This document shows positions 257 to 14,367 of a stretch of DNA of 14,367 nt, in pieces. The DNA lies in IMG/VR virus record IMGVR_UViG_2654587792_000011; one strand, 5' to 3'. Both the position numbers and the translations under genes were made by a program. Under the pieces are notes generated by a model that did no database searches, was not told the origin of the DNA, and worked only from the letters and a program-made list of their open reading frames with translations. Position 1 is the first letter of the stretch. Each line of letters starts with the position of its first letter. This DNA is from a virus (lineage: Duplodnaviria; Heunggongvirae; Uroviricota; Caudoviricetes).

Positions 257-260
257 GTCC

Positions 261-286
261 ATAAGAAAGCCCCTCCGGAGAGGGGC
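261..286 (-). terminator. rho-independent terminator (minus orientation), convergent with 228..256
   Basis: On the minus strand: GCCCCUC-UCCG-GAGGGGC followed by UUUCUUAU. The stem is a perfect 7 bp; the U-tract is moderate. Confidence 0.45.
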
Positions 287-483
287 TGGAGAGTGGCGCT
301 ATGTGCCATTGCATGGTGCCGGGTGCCTCCCGGTGAATTCAGTACCAGCACCTGAATCCGCGATTATCCCATATACCTACTCGCTGATTGCCCCTCCGCA
401 CAGGGGGATTCACCATGCCAGTTTCTTTTAACAAACTCCCCGCAAAACAGACAACAGTCAACCGCCTGAATTGTGAGACATTT

Positions 484-523: not shown

Positions 524-600
524 TGGCGCGTTGTACTGGATTCGAACCAGTGACCGATTGCTTAGAAGGCAATTGCTCTGTCCGGCTGAGCTAACAACGC
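524..600 (-). tRNA. argO: tRNA-Arg (anticodon UCU, reads AGA/AGG)
   Basis: 77-nt cloverleaf read by eye: GCGTTGT acceptor, GCTC/GAGC D-arm, ATTGC-CTTCTAA-GCAAT anticodon arm, ACTGG-TTCGAAT-CCAGT T-arm, encoded CCA. Confidence 0.92.
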
Positions 601-613
601 ATGATGCAGATAA

Positions 614-690
614 TGGACCGCCATCGGGGACTTGAACCCCGCGCAGCCAGCTTCGAAGGCTGGCGCTCTTTCCTGATGAGCTAATAGCGG
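614..690 (-). tRNA. argN: tRNA-Arg (anticodon UCG, reads CGA)
   Basis: 77-nt cloverleaf: CCGCTAT acceptor (one G.U pair), CCAGC-CTTCGAA-GCTGG anticodon arm, CGGGG-TTCAAGT-CCCCG T-arm, encoded CCA. Confidence 0.9.
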
Positions 691-697
691 TATGTGA

Positions 698-773
698 TGG
701 TGGCCCTTGCTGGATTTGAACCAGCGACCTGGCGATTATGAGTCGCTCGCTCTCACCACTGAGCTAAAGGGCC
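698..773 (-). tRNA. ileZ: tRNA with CAU anticodon, ileX/ileZ-like (Ile2, AUA after lysidine modification); Met by anticodon alone
   Basis: 76-nt cloverleaf GGCCCTT...AAGGGCC-A-CCA with anticodon loop CTCATAA. The body closely resembles the E. coli ileX sequence as I recall it. Confidence 0.88.
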
Positions 774-8465: not shown

Positions 8466-8656
8466 GGACGCACCTCCGCCGTAGTTACGTATTTAACCGG
8501 GCTACCTTTCATTGAGATGGTTTCACACATCTCTGCCGCTTTCAGTTCCGCTGTTTTTCTGGATTTATAGCGACGGTGCCAGACAGATACATCCGTGCAA
8601 ACTGATACATCGTTTCTGTATTCCGTAGTGGAGATGATGATTTCGTAACTAATCAT
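8462..8656 (-). CDS. hypothetical protein (64 aa)
   Basis: ATGA overlap with the rha stop and with the next gene. No recognisable motif. Confidence 0.5.
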   Translation of the reverse strand: MISYEIIISTTEYRNDVSVCTDVSVWHRRYKSRKTAELKAAEMCETISMKGSPVKYVTTAEVRP

Positions 8657-9204
8657 GGGCGAACCTCCTTGTCAGAACCATTCAGCCTGGAATCAACAAG
8701 TGCAGCGCCAAAAACAGCATCACCAACACGGTCGTACAGTTTGCTAGCCAGCGGAGATTCAACGGCCTTAAGCATTGGATAAAGCTGGCTTGTCCAGATT
8801 TGATGGATTTCACGCAAATGCAGGTATACGCCTCTGGCGTTTCGTGCGACAGCTGACATATCAACCGCGTCAGCACCAGATAAATTCTTCTCCATCTGGT
8901 TAAAGGCGTTGATGTATGCCTCTTTGAACCGGGCTGCACGTTTGCCAGTAAAGCCCATAGCAAGGAACGCGAAGCCATCGCGGGTGATTTGATAGCAAGG
9001 TAGTTTGCGGCCTGTGCAATCGGTGTAATCACTGGGCTGAAAATTCAGCTCAGTGAATTCAACAGAGCACTCAAGCGTCTGGATTTTTTGAATAACGTTT
9101 TTGTGCTGCTTGCAGAAATATTCGGCAACGGCCAAAGAAGAGGTAACAGCCTTCCCATGGATAACATCAATTTTAGGGTGAGTTTGGGTAGGGGTGGTTG
9201 CCAT
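8653..9204 (-). CDS. rha: phage regulatory protein Rha (183 aa, shortened from the 282-aa ORF)
   Basis: The Rha signature starts right after the internal Met: AVTSSLAVAEYFCKQHKNVIQKI...ITRDGFAFLAMGFTGKRAARFKEAYINAFNQME. ATG at 9204 with GAGGA SD at 9216..9212. The upstream 297 nt carry a terminator and RNA structure. Confidence 0.8.
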   Translation of the reverse strand: MATTPTQTHPKIDVIHGKAVTSSLAVAEYFCKQHKNVIQKIQTLECSVEFTELNFQPSDYTDCTGRKLPCYQITRDGFAFLAMGFTGKRAARFKEAYINAFNQMEKNLSGADAVDMSAVARNARGVYLHLREIHQIWTSQLYPMLKAVESPLASKLYDRVGDAVFGAALVDSRLNGSDKEVRP

Positions 9205-9214
9205 AGTGACATCC

Positions 9215-9256
9215 TCATGTGCGAATTTTGAAAACTCACCACATGGGACGCCAATC
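9215..9256 (-). promoter_or_regulatory. antisense target site pair (a2/b2-like) at the rha ribosome-binding site
   Basis: Minus RNA reads GAUUGGCGUCC (9256..9246), N17, AAAUUCGCACAUGA (9228..9215). The last two nt are the first two nt of the GAGGA SD. Both halves are complementary to loops of the 9262..9340 RNA. Confidence 0.55.
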
Positions 9257-9261
9257 ACAGA

Positions 9262-9340
9262 GGTGGTGAGACGTACAGGGTTGGCGTAACCGGTCGCACA
9301 TGACCCCGGCGCATCTTTCGATGCCCCTGCACGCCCCACC
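9262..9340 (-). ncRNA. c4-like antisense RNA (79 nt)
   Basis: 10-bp closing stem GGUGGGGCGU/ACGUCUCACC leaving a 3' ACC. GAAA-tetraloop hairpin (9327..9308). Large loop carrying UCAUGUGCGA (9303..9294) and ACGCCAA (9287..9281), complementary to the flanking repeated motifs. Confidence 0.6.
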
Positions 9341-9367
9341 ATAATTTGGATGTGAGGAAACGTGCGC

Positions 9368-9390
9368 AAAAAAACCGCTGAAGCGCGGTT
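9368..9390 (-). terminator. rho-independent terminator/attenuator between the upstream target copy and the c4-like RNA
   Basis: On the minus strand: AACCGC-GCUUCA-GCGGUU followed by U5 (7 consecutive A on the plus strand at 9368..9374). Flanked by palindromic TGCGCA arms (9363..9368 and 9392..9397). Confidence 0.6.
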
Positions 9391-9395
9391 ATGCG

Positions 9396-9421
9396 CATGT
9401 GCGAATTTCAGGACGCCAATC
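9396..9421 (-). promoter_or_regulatory. upstream copy of the antisense target pair (a1/b1-like)
   Basis: Minus RNA reads GAUUGGCGUCC (9421..9411), UG, AAAUUCGCACAUG (9408..9396). Both halves are identical to the copy at the rha RBS. Confidence 0.55.
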
Positions 9422-9450
9422 CCGGCACCCGCTTTATAAGGTGCGGAGAC

Positions 9451-9479
9451 AGTGTAACGTCCCGAAATTGCAGAATCAA
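9451..9479 (-). promoter_or_regulatory. candidate promoter for the antisense-RNA cassette
   Basis: On the minus strand: TTGATT (9479..9474), 17 bp, TACACT (9456..9451). Back-to-back with a plus-strand promoter candidate. Confidence 0.3.
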
Positions 9480-9523
9480 TATTTGGTCTTGAAATGATCA
9501 TATAGCTGCTGATATCTTTAGAA

Positions 9524-10604: not shown

Positions 10605-10737
10605 AACAAAGCACCAATATTAACTTTATAAATCAAGAATACATCAAGTTTAAATTAACATGCAAATTACAAAAGGATCGAATACACTAAAATCAAGTAA
10701 AGATTTATCCTTGTAAAGAAACCCACAGGATTTGGTC
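10605..10737. promoter_or_regulatory. divergent PR/PRM-type control region with ATCAAG-type operator half-sites
   Basis: AT-rich 133-bp spacer. ATCAAG occurs at 10632, 10643 and 10692. The 17-mer ATCAAGTAAAGATTTAT (10692..10708) resembles the PL palindrome. Several -35/-10-like hexamers on both strands are not resolved. Confidence 0.5.
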
Positions 10738-11427
10738 ATGAAGAACGTCAAAAACACGGAAAATCGAATAGCCGCGATGCTGAAAGCAAAAGGATGGACT
10801 CAGGCTCAACTGGCCCGCAAGTTAGGTGTGAGTGCGCAATCAGTGCAGTACTGGACAACAGGAAAAACATTTCCACGGAGTGATAAGCTCGCGCATTTAT
10901 CAGAGATTAGCGGTTATCCACAATCCTGGTTCTTAGGTGAAGACTCCTCACCAACCTTTTCCTCGCAAGAGAAACACCAGACAAGAACAGATAGCGTCGT
11001 ATTTAATGTCCTTGATGTTGAGTTTAGTTGCGGTGATGGAACTCATGTCCGTGGTGACTTGATAGATGTAGTGCGCTCAATAGAACTTGATCCTGAATAT
11101 GCCCGACGTCTTGTTGGAAATCGGGCATTCAAAAATATAGAAATAGGTAACGCCAGAGGAGACAGTATGGCTCCCACAATCTCACCTGGCGACCTTCTTT
11201 TTCTTGATAAGACAGTAACTTATTTTGATGGCGATGGTATTTATGCATTTTGTTTTGATGGAGAATGCTACGTGAAAAGGCTTCAAAAAATTGGAAGCAA
11301 AATCATGGTGTTATCTGATAACCCCAATTATCAACCATGGAGCATCGAAAAAGAGGGGTTAGCTCTGCTTTATATCCAGTCTAAAGTGATCTCATCAGTA
11401 CCATTCAACATAAACAGATTTGGTTAG
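10738..11427 (+). CDS. cI: cI-type prophage repressor (XRE HTH + S24/LexA-like autopeptidase)
   Basis: HTH WTQAQLARKLGVSAQSVQYW. GDSMAP Ser143 and YVKRL Lys180 are 37 residues apart, as in LexA. Putative cleavage site Cys98-Gly99. ATG at 10738 with AGGA SD is preferred over the TTG at 10732. Confidence 0.9.
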   Translation: MKNVKNTENRIAAMLKAKGWTQAQLARKLGVSAQSVQYWTTGKTFPRSDKLAHLSEISGYPQSWFLGEDSSPTFSSQEKHQTRTDSVVFNVLDVEFSCGDGTHVRGDLIDVVRSIELDPEYARRLVGNRAFKNIEIGNARGDSMAPTISPGDLLFLDKTVTYFDGDGIYAFCFDGECYVKRLQKIGSKIMVLSDNPNYQPWSIEKEGLALLYIQSKVISSVPFNINRFG

Positions 11428-11438
11428 TCTTTGATTTT

Positions 11439-11461
11439 AACGGGCTTTGCCCGTTTTTTTT
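11439..11461 (+). terminator. rho-independent terminator after the repressor gene
   Basis: AACGGGC-TTT-GCCCGTT followed by a T-run of 8, 12 nt after the stop codon. Confidence 0.75.
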
Positions 11462-11491
11462 CTGCCTGAAATATACGATATCAATTTTTTC

Positions 11492-11520
11492 TTGACAGCC
11501 TGTTTCCCAAAACATAATAT
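11492..11520 (+). promoter_or_regulatory. PL-like early-left promoter
   Basis: TTGACA (11492..11497), 17 bp, TAATAT (11515..11520). The -35 is overlapped by ATCAATTTTTTCTTGAC (11480..11496), an operator-like 17-mer. Confidence 0.6.
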
Positions 11521-11543: not shown

Positions 11544-11573
11544 TTGATTCAATTTAAAATTGTTGGCGGATAT

Positions 11574-12122
11574 ATGAAGACACTAAAAGCAACTCCAGAA
11601 ACAACTAATTTTATCAACTGCGGCTGTGTTACGCTTAAGGGCTTAGAACTTGATTCCTTTGCATTAAATATTGCAAATTTGCTAAGTGCTGTACGCACAT
11701 TCCATCTTCTGGATTGTGCTCGCTCAAAGGAACTGGGCATTGAGGTAATGGAATTTATCCATGAATATGCTCTATCTGCTGCTTCTCCTGCACAACAAAA
11801 ACAATCCTTCCCTGAAAGCTGGCTGGTTAACCTTCGCACCCAACGCGAAGCCTGCGGCTTAACAACCGCCGAACTCGCCAGGCTGCTCGATCTCGATGAA
11901 GAAATTATCATCCAGTGGGAGAGCGGAGAGTATGAACCAACTATCAGTATGCTTATCCCACTGGCAAATATTCTTGGCTGCGATCCGATGTGCCTGTTAA
12001 CTGGTGAGGTTACTCCTCCGGAGCAACCAAAAAGTGAGGAGCAGCAACACCATGACGCATCTCAACAAGTTTGCCCCTTATCTCGCGAAGCTCTTCTGCG
12101 GAAGAACCAATACCAATGGTGA
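11574..12122 (+). CDS. first PL-operon gene: novel N-terminal domain + XRE-type HTH + disordered tail
   Basis: 182 aa from ATG 11574 (the track TTG at 11544 is less likely). HTH GLTTAELARLLDLDEEIIIQWESGEYEPT. Residues 24-70 are paralogous to the C-terminus of the 12251..12616 product. Confidence 0.7.
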   Translation: MKTLKATPETTNFINCGCVTLKGLELDSFALNIANLLSAVRTFHLLDCARSKELGIEVMEFIHEYALSAASPAQQKQSFPESWLVNLRTQREACGLTTAELARLLDLDEEIIIQWESGEYEPTISMLIPLANILGCDPMCLLTGEVTPPEQPKSEEQQHHDASQQVCPLSREALLRKNQYQW

Positions 12123-12270
12123 CATAATCGCCGCTTCGCCCTTCAAGGTACATGCGAACATTTTTATCAATCATTGCGGAAACAGTCTCAATATGAAAAC
12201 ACTTCTGAGACTCGCTATATAGCAGAACATATAAGTCAGCTGAGGAAGCCATGAAAAAGTTCGAAAACAT
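12010..12270 (-). CDS. antisense-embedded small protein (86 aa), unknown function
   Basis: GGAG (12281..12278) lies 7 nt before ATG 12270. Perfect TATAAT at 12302..12297. Globular-looking sequence (LYVLLYSESQKCFHIETV...). Fills the 128-nt gap between plus-strand genes. Overlaps neighbours by 113 nt and 20 nt. Confidence 0.45.
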   Translation of the reverse strand: MFSNFFMASSADLYVLLYSESQKCFHIETVSAMIDKNVRMYLEGRSGDYVTIGIGSSAEELREIRGKLVEMRHGVAAPHFLVAPEE

Positions 12271-12616
12271 AACTGTTCTCCATGTTGATGACTTTGATTA
12301 TACAAACCCGGAACTTCTCCCGGAGGTTGTAAAGGCAATGGATGTTGCCGATATAGTGATTAGAGAAAAGAGAATTGTCAAAAACAGGCTCGCATGCACT
12401 TCAGGAGCAATGACAGAAACAACCTCACAGCAAGATAATTACGAAGGCATTTGTCTGGAGCCTGATTCATTTGCGGTAAATGTTTATCATTTATTGCATG
12501 CAACACAGGTATTACATATGTCCAGTAATCACGAAACGAAAACACTCGGCAGCGAAATTCTGAGTTTTGCATGTGAGTATACAAAAGCTGCTGCCGAAAA
12601 AGAATTAGCGCAATAA
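12251..12616 (+). CDS. orphan protein (121 aa) sharing a domain with the HTH protein but lacking an HTH
   Basis: GAGG SD 5 nt before the ATG. Residues 69-115 align ungapped with residues 24-70 of the 11574..12122 product (20/47 identical by hand count). Confidence 0.65.
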   Translation: MKKFENITVLHVDDFDYTNPELLPEVVKAMDVADIVIREKRIVKNRLACTSGAMTETTSQQDNYEGICLEPDSFAVNVYHLLHATQVLHMSSNHETKTLGSEILSFACEYTKAAAEKELAQ

Positions 12617-12694
12617 CAACAAATATGCCCTGAACGTTTATTGCGGTTTTATCGCCGGGGATTGTTACAACCTTAATCCACAGGAGGCTTTATT

Positions 12695-12808
12695 GTGACT
12701 TTTATAAAGAATATGGCATCACACAAGACCGCCTGCCTTATTGCACAATACGGTGAAAATTACATGCATATTGCCTGCTTATTTCTGCGTAAAGCATACG
12801 GGAGATAA
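12695..12808 (+). CDS. 37-aa micro-ORF (below the ORF-track cutoff)
   Basis: AGGAGG (12682..12687) lies 7 nt before GTG 12695. Product MTFIKNMASHKTACLIAQYGENYMHIACLFLRKAYGR. Its stop is 2 nt before the next ATG, and its 3' end supplies that gene's GGGAGA SD. Confidence 0.35.
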   Translation: MTFIKNMASHKTACLIAQYGENYMHIACLFLRKAYGR

Positions 12809-12810
12809 TA

Positions 12811-13023
12811 ATGCATCAGAAAACAGCAGAACACGAACAAACCAGAATATTGCTGACCATCAAAAACGGGAAAGTAATATTCATTCTCCATGTTCATGAC
12901 GATGAACTTGTAGGAACTCTTTCAACATTCCTGTTTATTGCAGAAAAGGCAGGATATGACGTTATTGCACCAGCAGATGAAGATGAAGATGAAGATGAAG
13001 ATGAAGATGAAGATGAGGAATAA
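12811..13023 (+). CDS. 70-aa protein with a poly-(Asp-Glu) C-terminal tail
   Basis: GGGAGA SD. Compact core followed by the tail ADEDEDEDEDEDEDEE. No recognised family. Confidence 0.65.
   Translation: MHQKTAEHEQTRILLTIKNGKVIFILHVHDDELVGTLSTFLFIAEKAGYDVIAPADEDEDEDEDEDEDEE
12976..13017 (+). repeat. in-frame hexanucleotide microsatellite (GATGAA)x6 + GATGAG
   Basis: Six exact tandem GATGAA units (12976..13011) plus one variant unit, encoding the acidic tail. Confidence 0.97.
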
Positions 13024-13028
13024 ATATC

Positions 13029-13610
13029 ATGCAATACGATGAATTCCAGGCTGAAGCAACAGCCAATGGTATACGAACTGGCAGTATGACGATTGATTAT
13101 CACGACGCCATACGTCGTCTGGATGCCGGAGAATTCGATACTCCTAATGTGCGAGGTTTACGTATCCTTCAGTGTCTGGCGCAAGCCGACGAAGCAGGAT
13201 TACTGGGTAAACTTCCGGTTGAGATGAAGGTTGCTCAGTGGCGATGGTTGTATGTGACGACATTCATCAACGAAGAAGAAGACAAGAACGGCACAATTGA
13301 TATCCTGAATGAACACGGAACAACTGAACACGCCGTGGTATATAACGGGATGTATGGGTTTATGACGATATATCCCGGCCCCATTCGATTTGCCTTACAA
13401 CAGTATATTGAATGGAATTTAATTCAAAAATACGGCGAAGCTGAAGGAATGGGAAGAGCGCTGTTTCTTTATCAGAAAATGCTCACTACTTCCCCTGATA
13501 AAGGTTTCATTCTTTCAGATATGGGTCGAGAAGGGCTTGAAATCCTTCTGGATGAAATTATTAACGAAATGAATACTCATGGCATGCAATCCGAAACAGA
13601 TATTAAGTAA
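13029..13610 (+). CDS. orphan acidic protein (193 aa), unknown function
   Basis: Starts 5 nt after the previous stop, with GAGGAA upstream. No motif I recognise. Confidence 0.65.
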   Translation: MQYDEFQAEATANGIRTGSMTIDYHDAIRRLDAGEFDTPNVRGLRILQCLAQADEAGLLGKLPVEMKVAQWRWLYVTTFINEEEDKNGTIDILNEHGTTEHAVVYNGMYGFMTIYPGPIRFALQQYIEWNLIQKYGEAEGMGRALFLYQKMLTTSPDKGFILSDMGREGLEILLDEIINEMNTHGMQSETDIK

Positions 13611-13620
13611 AAGGGACCAC

Positions 13621-13806
13621 ATGACCGTTATCGAGTATATCCAGGAAAATCCAGATTGCAGTAGAGAAGATATATCCCTCGCACTTGGAAGAAGCGCAAC
13701 TTCTATCAGTAATGAATTATCACGGTTATTGTGGAATGGGTTAATAGTACGAACTGGAGAAAAAAACAAAATGATTCTGTACTGCGTAAACAATCTGCCG
13801 TTTTGA
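13621..13806 (+). CDS. small winged-helix protein (61 aa) whose stop codon lies in the IS end
   Basis: ATG 13621 lies 10 nt after the previous stop. wHTH-like REDISLALGRSATSISNELSRLLWNGLIVRTG. The TGA (13804..13806) is the first three bases of the IS terminal repeat. Confidence 0.6.
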   Translation: MTVIEYIQENPDCSREDISLALGRSATSISNELSRLLWNGLIVRTGEKNKMILYCVNNLPF

Positions 13807-13875
13807 AGTGGCACACTGAATTTGGCCACCTGAACAGAGGTGATATGCTCACCTCAGAACAACACAGGTGCTCCA

Positions 13876-14367
<492 letters not shown>

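What the first reader, a model, noticed from the sequence alone, without database searches (positions are those of the whole stretch)
12958..13023. Hexanucleotide microsatellite encoding a (Asp-Glu)n tail on a 70-aa early protein
(GATGAA)x6 + GATGAG + GAA encodes DEDEDEDEDEDEDEE at the extreme C-terminus. A 6-bp unit keeps the frame under slipped-strand mispairing, so tail length can vary between isolates without inactivating the gene. Such charge-dense tails recur in DNA-mimic and anti-restriction proteins and in ssDNA-binding-protein interaction tails. The function here is unknown.
Basis: partly seen in the sequence, partly recalled or inferred. Interest (0 to 1): 0.5.

Follow-up and report, generated by a model that had tools for sequence, protein, structure and literature searches.

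The report
Slippage-prone acidic tail repeat, prophage gene
A perfect six-base repeat at the end of a small prophage gene of unknown function really does change copy number (2 to 9 units) between otherwise identical E. coli prophages, lengthening an acidic Asp-Glu tail, but nothing found here shows that the length matters or that the protein is a DNA mimic.

Summary
Window 12976-13011 is (GATGAA)x6, followed by GATGAG, GAA and TAA. It ends a 70-aa ORF (12811-13023) in the operon downstream of cI in a lambdoid prophage integrated at yecE.

Across 84 related loci the tract holds 2, 3, 4, 5, 6, 7, 8 or 9 units, always in frame and always in whole-unit steps. Five loci with identical 1,255-bp flanks, the window among them, carry 3, 4, 5, 6 and 7 units. 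All divergent lineages have two units (tail DEDEE), and two-unit haplotype groups never vary. So two units is probably ancestral, and the tract becomes unstable at three or more.

The last unit (GATGAG GAA) never varies. It contains the ribosome-binding site of the next gene.

The protein has a roughly 47-aa conserved core (beta-hairpin plus helix, PHROG 340) found only in enterobacterial prophages. Relatives carry short disordered tails, usually mildly acidic, but not (DE)n.

There is no sequence or fold link to DNA mimics, anti-restriction proteins, SSB tails or antitoxins. The only lead is weak homology to a C-terminal module of PHROG "anti-repressor" families.

Best reading: an ordinary, probably near-neutral, in-frame coding microsatellite. 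Function remains unknown.

The parts
12811..13023 (+). 70-aa ORF of the phrog_340 family. Conserved core is residues 8-54; disordered acidic tail is residues 55-70.
   Evidence: Translation. phrog_340 at E 2.3e-22. 198 relatives, all small 'hypothetical' enterobacterial prophage proteins. AF2 mean pLDDT 81.5: strands 12-18 and 21-28, helix 37-46, tail about 53. dN/dS 0.13-0.37.
12832..12972 (+). Conserved core domain, from H8 to P54: ..LTI[KE]NGxV...DE....TF...A..AGYxVxxP.
   Evidence: Alignments A1 and A2. 35 of 38 family members also hit the C-terminal part of phrog_4792 'anti-repressor'.
12976..13011 (+). Variable microsatellite (GATGAA)x6, encoding (Asp-Glu)6. Other prophages have 1 to 8 copies of this unit.
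   Evidence: TRF. Allelic ladder of 2-9 total units. Polymorphic on identical flanks.
13012..13023 (+). Invariant end of the gene: GATGAG GAA TAA. GAGGA at 13015-13019 is the Shine-Dalgarno for the ATG at 13029.
   Evidence: Identical in every allele, with GAG in place of GAA in Stx-type lineages. 9-nt spacing to ATG 13029. In phiP27 an AAGGAG sits at the equivalent place in the tail codons and the stop and start overlap as ATGA.
12800..12805 (+). Shine-Dalgarno GGGAGA of the 70-aa gene.
   Evidence: Sequence; 5 nt upstream of ATG 12811.
12695..12808 (+). Upstream micro-ORF (37 aa, GTG start, AGGAGG at 12683-12688). Its double stop TAATAA overlaps the ATG of the 70-aa gene.
   Evidence: Translation. 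Annotated in Stx1_14040. A homologous 32-aa ORF ending ...LFLRKAYGK lies upstream of the distant relative in L009.
13029..13610 (+). Downstream 193-aa gene (phrog_1515, function unknown), apparently translationally coupled.
11439..11520 (+). Terminator-like hairpin after cI (11439-11455) and promoter-like site TTGACA-17-TAATAT (11492-11520). This is the likely early-left promoter of the operon that holds the gene.
   Evidence: Consensus scan (consensus matches only). AATCAAG half-sites cluster on both sides of cI.

Best explanation
The feature is an in-frame coding microsatellite (a VNTR). It sits in the disordered C-terminal tail of a small prophage protein encoded in the operon downstream of cI, probably the early-left operon.

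The ancestral tail coding sequence GATGAA GATGAG GAA (DEDEE) already held two near-identical hexamers. In one E. coli prophage lineage it gained a third unit. From then on replication slippage adds or removes whole GATGAA units: 2 to 9 units, proteins of 60 to 74 aa.

The changes stay in frame. They fall in a tail that is disordered and variable in length across the family. They leave untouched the last unit, which carries the ribosome-binding site of the next gene. So the changes are tolerated and drift, most likely with little or no effect on fitness.

Shown here: the repeat, the whole-unit polymorphism on identical backgrounds, the stability of two-unit alleles, the invariant last unit, and the disordered, variable tail in relatives.

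Inferred: slippage as the mechanism, near-neutrality, early expression, and translational coupling. What the protein does is not known. A mildly acidic tail is typical of the family, so some electrostatic role for the tail is possible but untested.
For: Perfect array with identical codons in every unit, which points to recent DNA-level expansion rather than selection for an amino-acid repeat.

Census of 84 loci: n=2 in 36, 3 in 24, 4 in 6, 5 in 7, 6 in 2, 7 in 6, 8 in 1 and 9 in 1; one further locus is cut off by its contig end. No out-of-frame variant was seen.

In an 8-sequence alignment the only indel in about 1.5 kb is the repeat.

One haplotype with 1,255 bp of identical flanks carries n=3, 4, 5, 6 and 7. 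Six of 16 multi-member haplotypes are polymorphic. All five n=2 groups (14 loci) are monomorphic.

Among pairs in which at least one allele has n>=3, those with 0 SNPs share n only 52% of the time and those with 1-2 SNPs 25%, against a background of about 20%.

Exact-protein look-ups find one constant core with n=2, 3, 4 and 5 on >=1000, 432, 265 and 688 contigs, and further cores with several alleles.

Complete E. coli genomes give match lengths of 1071 to 1113 bp in steps of 6, with annotated CDSs of 183 to 225 nt.

Allele counts fall roughly geometrically with length, with no preferred long allele.

The tail is predicted disordered. Family tails are 5-22 aa and differ in sequence; 65 of 72 distinct tails are net negative, and most of those outside this E. 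coli lineage carry only -1 to -5.
Against: Near-neutrality is not demonstrated. Tail charge changes from about -5 to -19, which could well alter an interaction.

Sampling is clonal (for example ST131), so allele frequencies are not a test of selection.

Mosaic recombination among lambdoid prophages could move alleles between backgrounds. It would, however, need breakpoints within about 600 bp on each side of the tract.

One five-member haplotype is uniformly n=7, so instability is not extreme; those five may be clonal.
Confidence: 0.75

Rival explanations
1. Adaptive rheostat. The poly-(Asp-Glu) tail is a functional nucleic-acid-mimicking or electrostatic arm. It would bind a basic DNA- or RNA-binding target: a repressor, a nucleoid protein, or a restriction or defence nuclease. 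Slippage would then serve as a contingency mechanism that tunes affinity in an arms race.
For: Net-negative tails are the rule in the family (65 of 72 distinct tails). The gene sits next to the immunity region, in the part of lambdoid genomes where accessory and host-interaction genes cluster. The core is homologous to a C-terminal module of PHROG families annotated 'anti-repressor' (35 of 38 members, best E 4e-6). The tract is highly mutable.
Against: There is no homology or fold match to any DNA mimic, anti-restriction, anti-defence or antitoxin family. The commonest and ancestral state is only DEDEE. Some relatives paired with the same downstream partner have neutral tails, such as phiP27 AKEQTL. 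Allele frequency decays with length and shows no favoured long allele. The PHROG label does not say which domain carries anti-repressor activity.
Confidence: 0.15
2. The repeat acts at the nucleic-acid level. It would tune translation of the downstream 193-aa gene, through ribosome-binding-site context or translational coupling, or it would serve as a protein-binding DNA array. In this reading the encoded tail is incidental.
For: The last unit contains the GAGGA Shine-Dalgarno 9 nt upstream of ATG 13029. The stop-to-start gap is 5 nt. phiP27 has the same arrangement, with AAGGAG inside the tail codons and an ATGA overlap.
Against: Copy-number changes occur only upstream of the invariant last unit. 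SD sequence, spacing and stop-start distance are therefore identical in all alleles. Relatives have no repeat at all. No inverted repeat or other structured element involves the tract, and Rfam gives no hit there.
Confidence: 0.06
3. Artefact or non-coding. The length differences would be assembly or sequencing errors, or the ORF would not be a real gene.
For: Low-complexity repeats can be mis-assembled. The exact-sequence protein collection lacks all alleles of 68 aa or more that were looked up.
Against: The tracts are only 12-54 bp, well within read length. The same alleles recur in hundreds of independent assemblies and in complete genomes. The ORF has its own Shine-Dalgarno, conserved synteny and purifying selection on the core.
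Confidence: 0.02

Closest known systems
In-frame coding VNTRs and microsatellites of bacteria, such as the hexanucleotide loci used for E. coli MLVA typing (from my own knowledge, not retrieved here)
   Same: Perfect short tandem units. Copy number changes in whole-unit steps between near-identical strains. The reading frame is preserved because the unit is a multiple of 3. Instability rises with tract length.
   Different: This one lies in a prophage ORFan, at the very C-terminus. It creates a pure poly-(Asp-Glu) tail, and its last unit doubles as the next gene's ribosome-binding site. A literature search for the motif as a VNTR found nothing relevant.
Simple-sequence contingency loci (phase-variable genes of Haemophilus, Neisseria and Campylobacter)
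   Same: Slipped-strand mispairing in a coding repeat generates heritable, reversible variation at high rate.
   Different: Those switch genes on and off by frameshifting, with units of 1, 2, 4, 5 or 7 nt. A 6-nt unit cannot do this. Only tail length changes here, and no out-of-frame allele was seen among the 83 complete loci.
Acidic C-terminal tails of ssDNA-binding proteins (E. coli SSB, T7 gp2.5, T4 gp32) and other disordered acidic tails that compete with nucleic acid (HMGB1, Hfq C-terminus); from my own knowledge
   Same: A disordered, strongly negative C-terminal tail attached to a small folded domain.
   Different: No OB fold or any nucleic-acid-binding domain was detected. There is no hydrophobic or aromatic tip; the tail ends ...DEE. 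The core is not basic (net -1 to -2).
DNA-mimic anti-restriction proteins (T7 Ocr, ArdA, lambda Gam, T7 gp5.9)
   Same: Phage-encoded, early, acidic.
   Different: Those display their charges on a folded surface that imitates B-DNA. Here the charge is in a disordered homopolymer-like tail. No sequence or structural similarity was found.
PHROG 'anti-repressor' families phrog_4792 and phrog_2379
   Same: The ~45-aa core aligns to a C-terminal segment of these profiles (positions 199-240 of 268 and 127-175 of 187). This holds consistently across the family.
   Different: Only that module is shared; the N-terminal two thirds of those proteins are absent. The matches are weak (E 1e-4 to 4e-6). The annotation is by family label and has not been tested for this module.

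Membership tests
In-frame coding microsatellite / VNTR generated by slipped-strand mispairing | Perfect head-to-tail copies of a short unit inside an ORF, with unit length a multiple of 3 | tested here: met
   TRF: period 6, 7.0 copies, 100% matches. The tract lies within ORF 12811-13023.
In-frame coding microsatellite / VNTR generated by slipped-strand mispairing | Copy number differs by whole units between otherwise near-identical sequences | tested here: met
   Alleles of 2-9 units. Five alleles on identical 1,255-bp flanks, and 6 of 16 multi-member haplotypes polymorphic. The repeat is the only indel in about 1.5 kb.
In-frame coding microsatellite / VNTR generated by slipped-strand mispairing | Instability increases with tract length | tested here: met
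   All five n=2 haplotype groups (14 loci) are monomorphic, and every divergent lineage has n=2. Six of the 11 groups with n>=3 are polymorphic. The sample is small and partly clonal.
In-frame coding microsatellite / VNTR generated by slipped-strand mispairing | Length heterogeneity arising within a single clone or culture | not testable with these tools
   Needs deep sequencing or fragment sizing of one lysogen.
Phase-variable contingency locus (on/off switching) | Repeat changes shift the reading frame or promoter spacing and switch expression | tested here: not met
   The unit is 6 nt. All 83 complete alleles are in frame. The downstream Shine-Dalgarno and its spacing do not change.
DNA-mimic anti-restriction proteins (Ocr, ArdA and the like) | Sequence or structural homology to a known mimic family | tested here: not met
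   [not shown]
DNA-mimic anti-restriction proteins (Ocr, ArdA and the like) | Folded domain with a dense, ordered array of surface carboxylates (very low pI for the fold itself) | tested here: not met
   Core net charge is -1 to -2. All the extra charge lies in the low-confidence, disordered tail.
SSB-type acidic C-terminal tail | OB-fold ssDNA-binding domain upstream of the tail | tested here: not met
   The AF2 model is a beta-hairpin plus one helix. There is no SSB Pfam hit.
SSB-type acidic C-terminal tail | Acidic tip ending in hydrophobic or aromatic residues (for example DDDIPF, or the terminal Phe of gp2.5) | tested here: not met
   The tail ends ...DEDEE in every allele.
Type II antitoxin with disordered acidic C-terminus (MazE/CcdA-like) | Adjacent cognate toxin gene and a DNA-binding dimerisation domain of a known antitoxin class | tested here: not met
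   [not shown]
phrog_340 (some relatives tagged PF27490) small enterobacterial prophage proteins | Significant full-length match to the family profile, and the conserved core motif LTI[EK]NGxV...AGYxVxxP | tested here: met
   phrog_340 at E 2.3e-22; all 38 aligned members match. Invariant I17, N19, G20, V22, E32, G48 and P54. PF27490 is not in the local Pfam copy, so it could not be tested directly.
Phage anti-repressors (phrog_4792 / phrog_2379) | Full-length similarity to the family, or demonstrated binding to a repressor | tested here: inconclusive
   Only a C-terminal ~45-residue module matches, at E 1e-4 to 4e-6 in 35 of 38 members. The rest of the profile is absent. Activity cannot be tested here.

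The most novel reading that the evidence does not exclude
The 70-aa protein would be a stand-alone version of an anti-repressor-type interaction module. Its poly-(Asp-Glu) tail would act as a nucleic-acid mimic against a DNA-binding target: a phage or host repressor, or a defence nuclease. The hexanucleotide tract would be a genuine phage-borne contingency locus that tunes tail length, and so affinity, at a rate far above point mutation. That would make it a graded rheostat rather than an on/off switch.
Probability: 0.1. Interest if true: 0.6.

Novelty: new member of a known kind. Interest (0 to 1): 0.3.

Why it matters
As it stands, this is a well-documented example of a hypermutable in-frame microsatellite in a widespread family of E. 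coli prophages. Carriers include ST131, O55:H7 and O111 strains; relatives in Stx-converting phages have the stable two-unit form.

It could serve as a fast-evolving marker for sub-typing otherwise identical prophages.

It also gives a natural allelic series, with tails of 5 to 19 acidic residues on an identical core. That series is ready-made for asking what the tail of this uncharacterised protein family does.

It shows that a 3' coding repeat can vary freely while its last unit is pinned by the downstream gene's ribosome-binding site.

If tail length proved functional, it would be an unusual graded contingency mechanism in a temperate phage. Nothing here shows that.

Tried and rejected
Family scans of the 70-aa protein in Pfam, NCBIfam and PADLOC found nothing.

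Sequence searches against PDB chains also led nowhere. The single-sequence search gave only a spurious chloroplast uL4 match driven by its acidic tail, and the profile search gave nothing below E 0.2.

The first homologue search with the full protein was swamped by DEDED words, with only 8000 candidates scored. It was repeated with the core alone and with a core profile.

Giant proteins with several 'stretches' (for example P0039) are low-complexity beta-repeat proteins and were judged spurious.

Toxin-antitoxin idea: prompted by a precomputed 'ParE_like' tag on a 72-aa ORF downstream of a distant relative. Rejected, because that ORF is not called in sister loci, the window has a different, acidic 193-aa neighbour, and no toxin family matches.

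Structure and fold search of the 193-aa neighbour gave a confident model but no informative match.

A local HMM search for the core domain in all ORFs of the fetched phage regions, including the Rha and Ant proteins, found only the orthologues.

The attempt to catch within-clone change (strains S4 and S5 from one study, n=5 versus n=2) failed. They carry different mosaic prophages at the same site.

Literature searches for the motif as a VNTR, for hexanucleotide repeats in prophages, and for PF27490 returned nothing relevant.

Full report
1. The observation.

The region was read directly and translated. ORF 12811-13023 on the + strand encodes a 70-aa protein: MHQKTAEHEQTRILLTIKNGKVIFILHVHDDELVGTLSTFLFIAEKAGYDVIAPADEDEDEDEDEDEDEE. 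The tract is (GATGAA)x6 at 12976-13011, then GATGAG (13012-13017), GAA (13018-13020) and TAA (13021-13023).

Tandem Repeats Finder reports period 6, 7.0 copies and 100% matches, the only perfect array in the window.

Every Asp is GAT and every Glu in the variable part is GAA. The repeat is therefore a DNA-level repeat, not just an amino-acid one.

2. Context.

The window is part of a lambdoid prophage integrated next to the yecE-type DUF72 gene.

The leftward half of the window holds replication and late-regulation genes on the minus strand: a DNA methylase, a Q-like DUF1133 protein, RusA, DUF968, DnaB, a DnaC-like protein and Rha/Ash proteins.

A LexA/S24-type cI repressor lies at 10732-11427 (+). 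It is followed by a terminator-like hairpin (11439-11455) and a promoter-like TTGACA-17-TAATAT (11492-11520). Four of the window's five AATCAAG heptamers flank cI on both sides, which suggests operator half-sites.

From that promoter a tightly packed + strand operon runs towards xis and int:
- an HTH protein (11544-12122);
- a 121-aa ORF (12251-12616);
- a 37-aa micro-ORF (12695-12808);
- the 70-aa gene;
- a 193-aa gene (13029-13610);
- a small MarR-like gene, cut by an IS3-family insertion.

'Early gene' is therefore a reasonable inference, but it is not shown.

The micro-ORF's TAATAA overlaps the ATG of the 70-aa gene. The 70-aa gene's last codons contain GAGGA (13015-19), 9 nt before the ATG of the 193-aa gene.

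3. The decisive test: does copy number vary?

It does.

Megablast of 12600-13700 against 5,426 complete E. coli genomes found 203 near-full-length matches. Their lengths fall at 1071, 1077, 1083, 1089, 1095, 1101 and 1113 bp, in steps of exactly 6.

Fetching one genome of each class showed annotated CDSs of 183 to 225 nt. The difference lies entirely in the number of GATGAA units. In an 8-sequence alignment the repeat is the only indel in about 1.5 kb.

A scan of IMG/VR added 74 close loci. Over 84 loci the counts are n=2 in 36, 3 in 24, 4 in 6, 5 in 7, 6 in 2, 7 in 6, 8 in 1 and 9 in 1; one further locus is cut off by its contig end. The structure is always (GATGAA)n-1 GATGAG GA[AG] TAA, and no allele is out of frame.

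Exact-sequence look-ups in a 15-billion-protein collection found a single constant core with n=2, 3, 4 and 5 on >=1000, 432, 265 and 688 contigs. Other core haplotypes also carry several alleles each.

4. Recurrent change rather than inheritance.

I took 665 bp to the left of the tract (including the gene's core) and 590 bp to the right. The 81 loci with complete flanks form 53 haplotypes.

One haplotype, which includes the window, has five members carrying n=3, 4, 5, 6 and 7. Six of 16 multi-member haplotypes are polymorphic: 3/4/5/6/7, 4/5, 3/9, 5/6, 3/4 and 3/5.

All five groups with n=2 (14 loci) are monomorphic. Every divergent lineage is n=2, including the Stx-converting phages and the S36 and most N36 core variants; one N36 locus has n=5.

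Consider pairs in which at least one allele has n>=3. With zero SNPs in 1,255 bp, only 52% share the same n. With 1-2 SNPs it is 25%, already close to the background of about 20%. So the tract changes at least as fast as the whole 1.25 kb around it accumulates substitutions. That is roughly three orders of magnitude above the per-base rate. This is a rough inference, and recombination is not excluded.

The pattern fits established microsatellite behaviour, which I state from my own knowledge: slippage needs a threshold tract length and its rate rises with length. Here n=2 is ancestral and stable, and n>=3 is unstable.

The number of distinct haplotype-allele combinations falls roughly geometrically with n: 27, 17, 6, 6, 2, 2, 1, 1. 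No long allele is favoured.

5. The protein.

It matches phrog_340 (function unknown) at E 2e-22 and has no hit in Pfam, NCBIfam or PADLOC.

An exhaustive phmmer search with the core, followed by a profile search, found about 200 relatives. All are 54-85-aa 'hypothetical proteins' of prophages in Escherichia, Shigella, Klebsiella, Raoultella, Salmonella, Citrobacter and Lelliottia. One 120-aa protein carries two tandem copies of the domain.

Relatives occur in phages phiP27, phi467 and ASU11 and in Klebsiella temperate phages, always unannotated. They always sit at the same place: after the repressor, a second HTH gene and a ~120-aa ORF, on the way to xis/int.

Against distant relatives the core has dN/dS of 0.13-0.37 where synonymous divergence is not saturated.

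AlphaFold2 with a 38-sequence alignment gives a confident small core: strands 12-18 and 21-28, helix 37-46, block pLDDT 89-94. The tail is low-confidence, at about 53.

The conserved core ends at AGYxVxxP. After it, relatives carry 5-22 residues of variable polar sequence. Of 72 distinct tails, 65 are net negative, 5 neutral and 2 positive; most of those outside this E. coli lineage carry only -1 to -5. The (DE)n tail is confined to one E. coli lineage.

6. Tests of the functional analogies.

No PDB chain is related by sequence. The uL4 'hit' is just another acidic tail.

The folded part is almost neutral (net -1 to -2), so it is not an Ocr- or ArdA-style mimic with an ordered acidic surface. 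There is no OB fold, and the tail ends in DEE rather than a hydrophobic tip, so it is not an SSB-type tail. The antitoxin idea also fails, as set out under what was tried and rejected.

The single positive lead is the PHROG comparison. Of 38 family members, 35 hit the C-terminal ~45 positions of phrog_4792, and 24 hit phrog_2379. Both are labelled 'anti-repressor' (best E 4e-6). So the core is a module that also occurs fused to larger regulatory proteins. This says nothing certain about activity.

The Rha and Ant proteins of these same prophages do not contain the module.

7. The neighbour.

The 193-aa downstream protein (phrog_1515) is paired with the family gene in the window, in phiP27 (65% identity) and in phi467 (48%). 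In other lineages it is replaced by unrelated genes.

In phiP27 the two genes overlap as ATGA, and the tail codons contain AAGGAG 8 nt upstream of the downstream ATG. This mirrors the GAGGA in the window. The 3' end of the tail-coding sequence is thus constrained by the next gene's ribosome-binding site. That explains why the last unit is GATGAG and never varies (inference).

The phiP27 tail (AKEQTL) is not acidic, so pairing with phrog_1515 does not require an acidic tail.

8. Verdict.

The mechanistic suggestions (DNA mimic, anti-restriction, SSB-like tail) fail every test that could be run here. They survive only as an untested possibility.

The best-supported account is an ordinary, probably near-neutral coding microsatellite. 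It arose from an ancestral DEDEE-coding dimer in a disordered tail that tolerates length change, and it is bounded at its 3' end by a functional Shine-Dalgarno.

It is a new member of a known kind and of modest interest. Its main value is the natural allelic series it provides for an uncharacterised, widespread prophage protein family.

Noticed in passing
window 13621-13806 and 13806-14367: An IS3-family element is inserted at the 3' end of a small MarR-like winged-helix gene. Its OrfA (13877-14178) matches PF01527, and its end begins 'TGAAGTGGCACACTG' at about 13804. The gene is 61 aa here against 84 aa in Stx1_14040, and the stop codon is supplied at the junction. The closest complete genome (L001) has an IS903B at about the same place. 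These prophages may therefore be decaying.
   Followed up: partly
window 12695-12808: A 37-aa micro-ORF with a GTG start and a strong AGGAGG site. Its double stop overlaps the start of the 70-aa gene. A homologous 32-aa ORF (shared ...LFLRKAYG[KR]) lies upstream of a relative that is only about 44% identical (L009:4541-4639). It is probably a real, conserved small gene, but PGAP does not annotate it in the RefSeq genomes examined.
   Followed up: partly
window 12251-12616 and 11544-12122: The 121-aa ORF matches phrog_5451 over its full length (E 4e-83), yet PGAP calls only its last 68 codons. Residues 33-82 of the upstream HTH protein hit the same PHROGs (5451 and 4587), so the two neighbouring genes share a domain.
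   Followed up: no
window 9259-9346 and 9368-9444 (minus strand): Rfam finds a C4 antisense RNA (75 bits) and isrK (62 bits) inside the Ash/Rha gene 8653-9501. This resembles the P1/P7-type antisense immunity module sitting next to a lambda-type cI.
   Followed up: no
window 257-447 and 527-773 (minus strand): An STnc100 sRNA (139 bits) and three tRNA genes lie at the left end of the window. This matches the tRNA cluster annotated in the closest genome (Arg, Arg, Ile).
   Followed up: no
window 10631, 10691, 11538, 11649: Four of the window's five AATCAAG heptamers lie in the two intergenic regions flanking cI. They are candidate operator half-sites, and they would place the promoter-like site at 11492-11520 under repressor control.
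   Followed up: partly
L015 and L016 (E. coli strains S4 and S5): Two strains from one study have identical chromosomal flanks, integrase and excisionase proteins at the yecE site, but different immunity and replication modules. They carry n=5 and n=2. This is mosaic prophage replacement at a single attachment site.
   Followed up: partly
protein P0036 (120 aa): A relative with two tandem copies of the core domain in one chain. This hints that the single-domain proteins work as dimers.
   Followed up: no
Every allele of 68 aa or more that was looked up is absent from the exact-sequence protein collection, although RefSeq complete genomes encode 68-, 70- and 74-aa alleles. Absence there is therefore not evidence that long alleles are rare.
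   Followed up: no
[not shown]
   Followed up: partly
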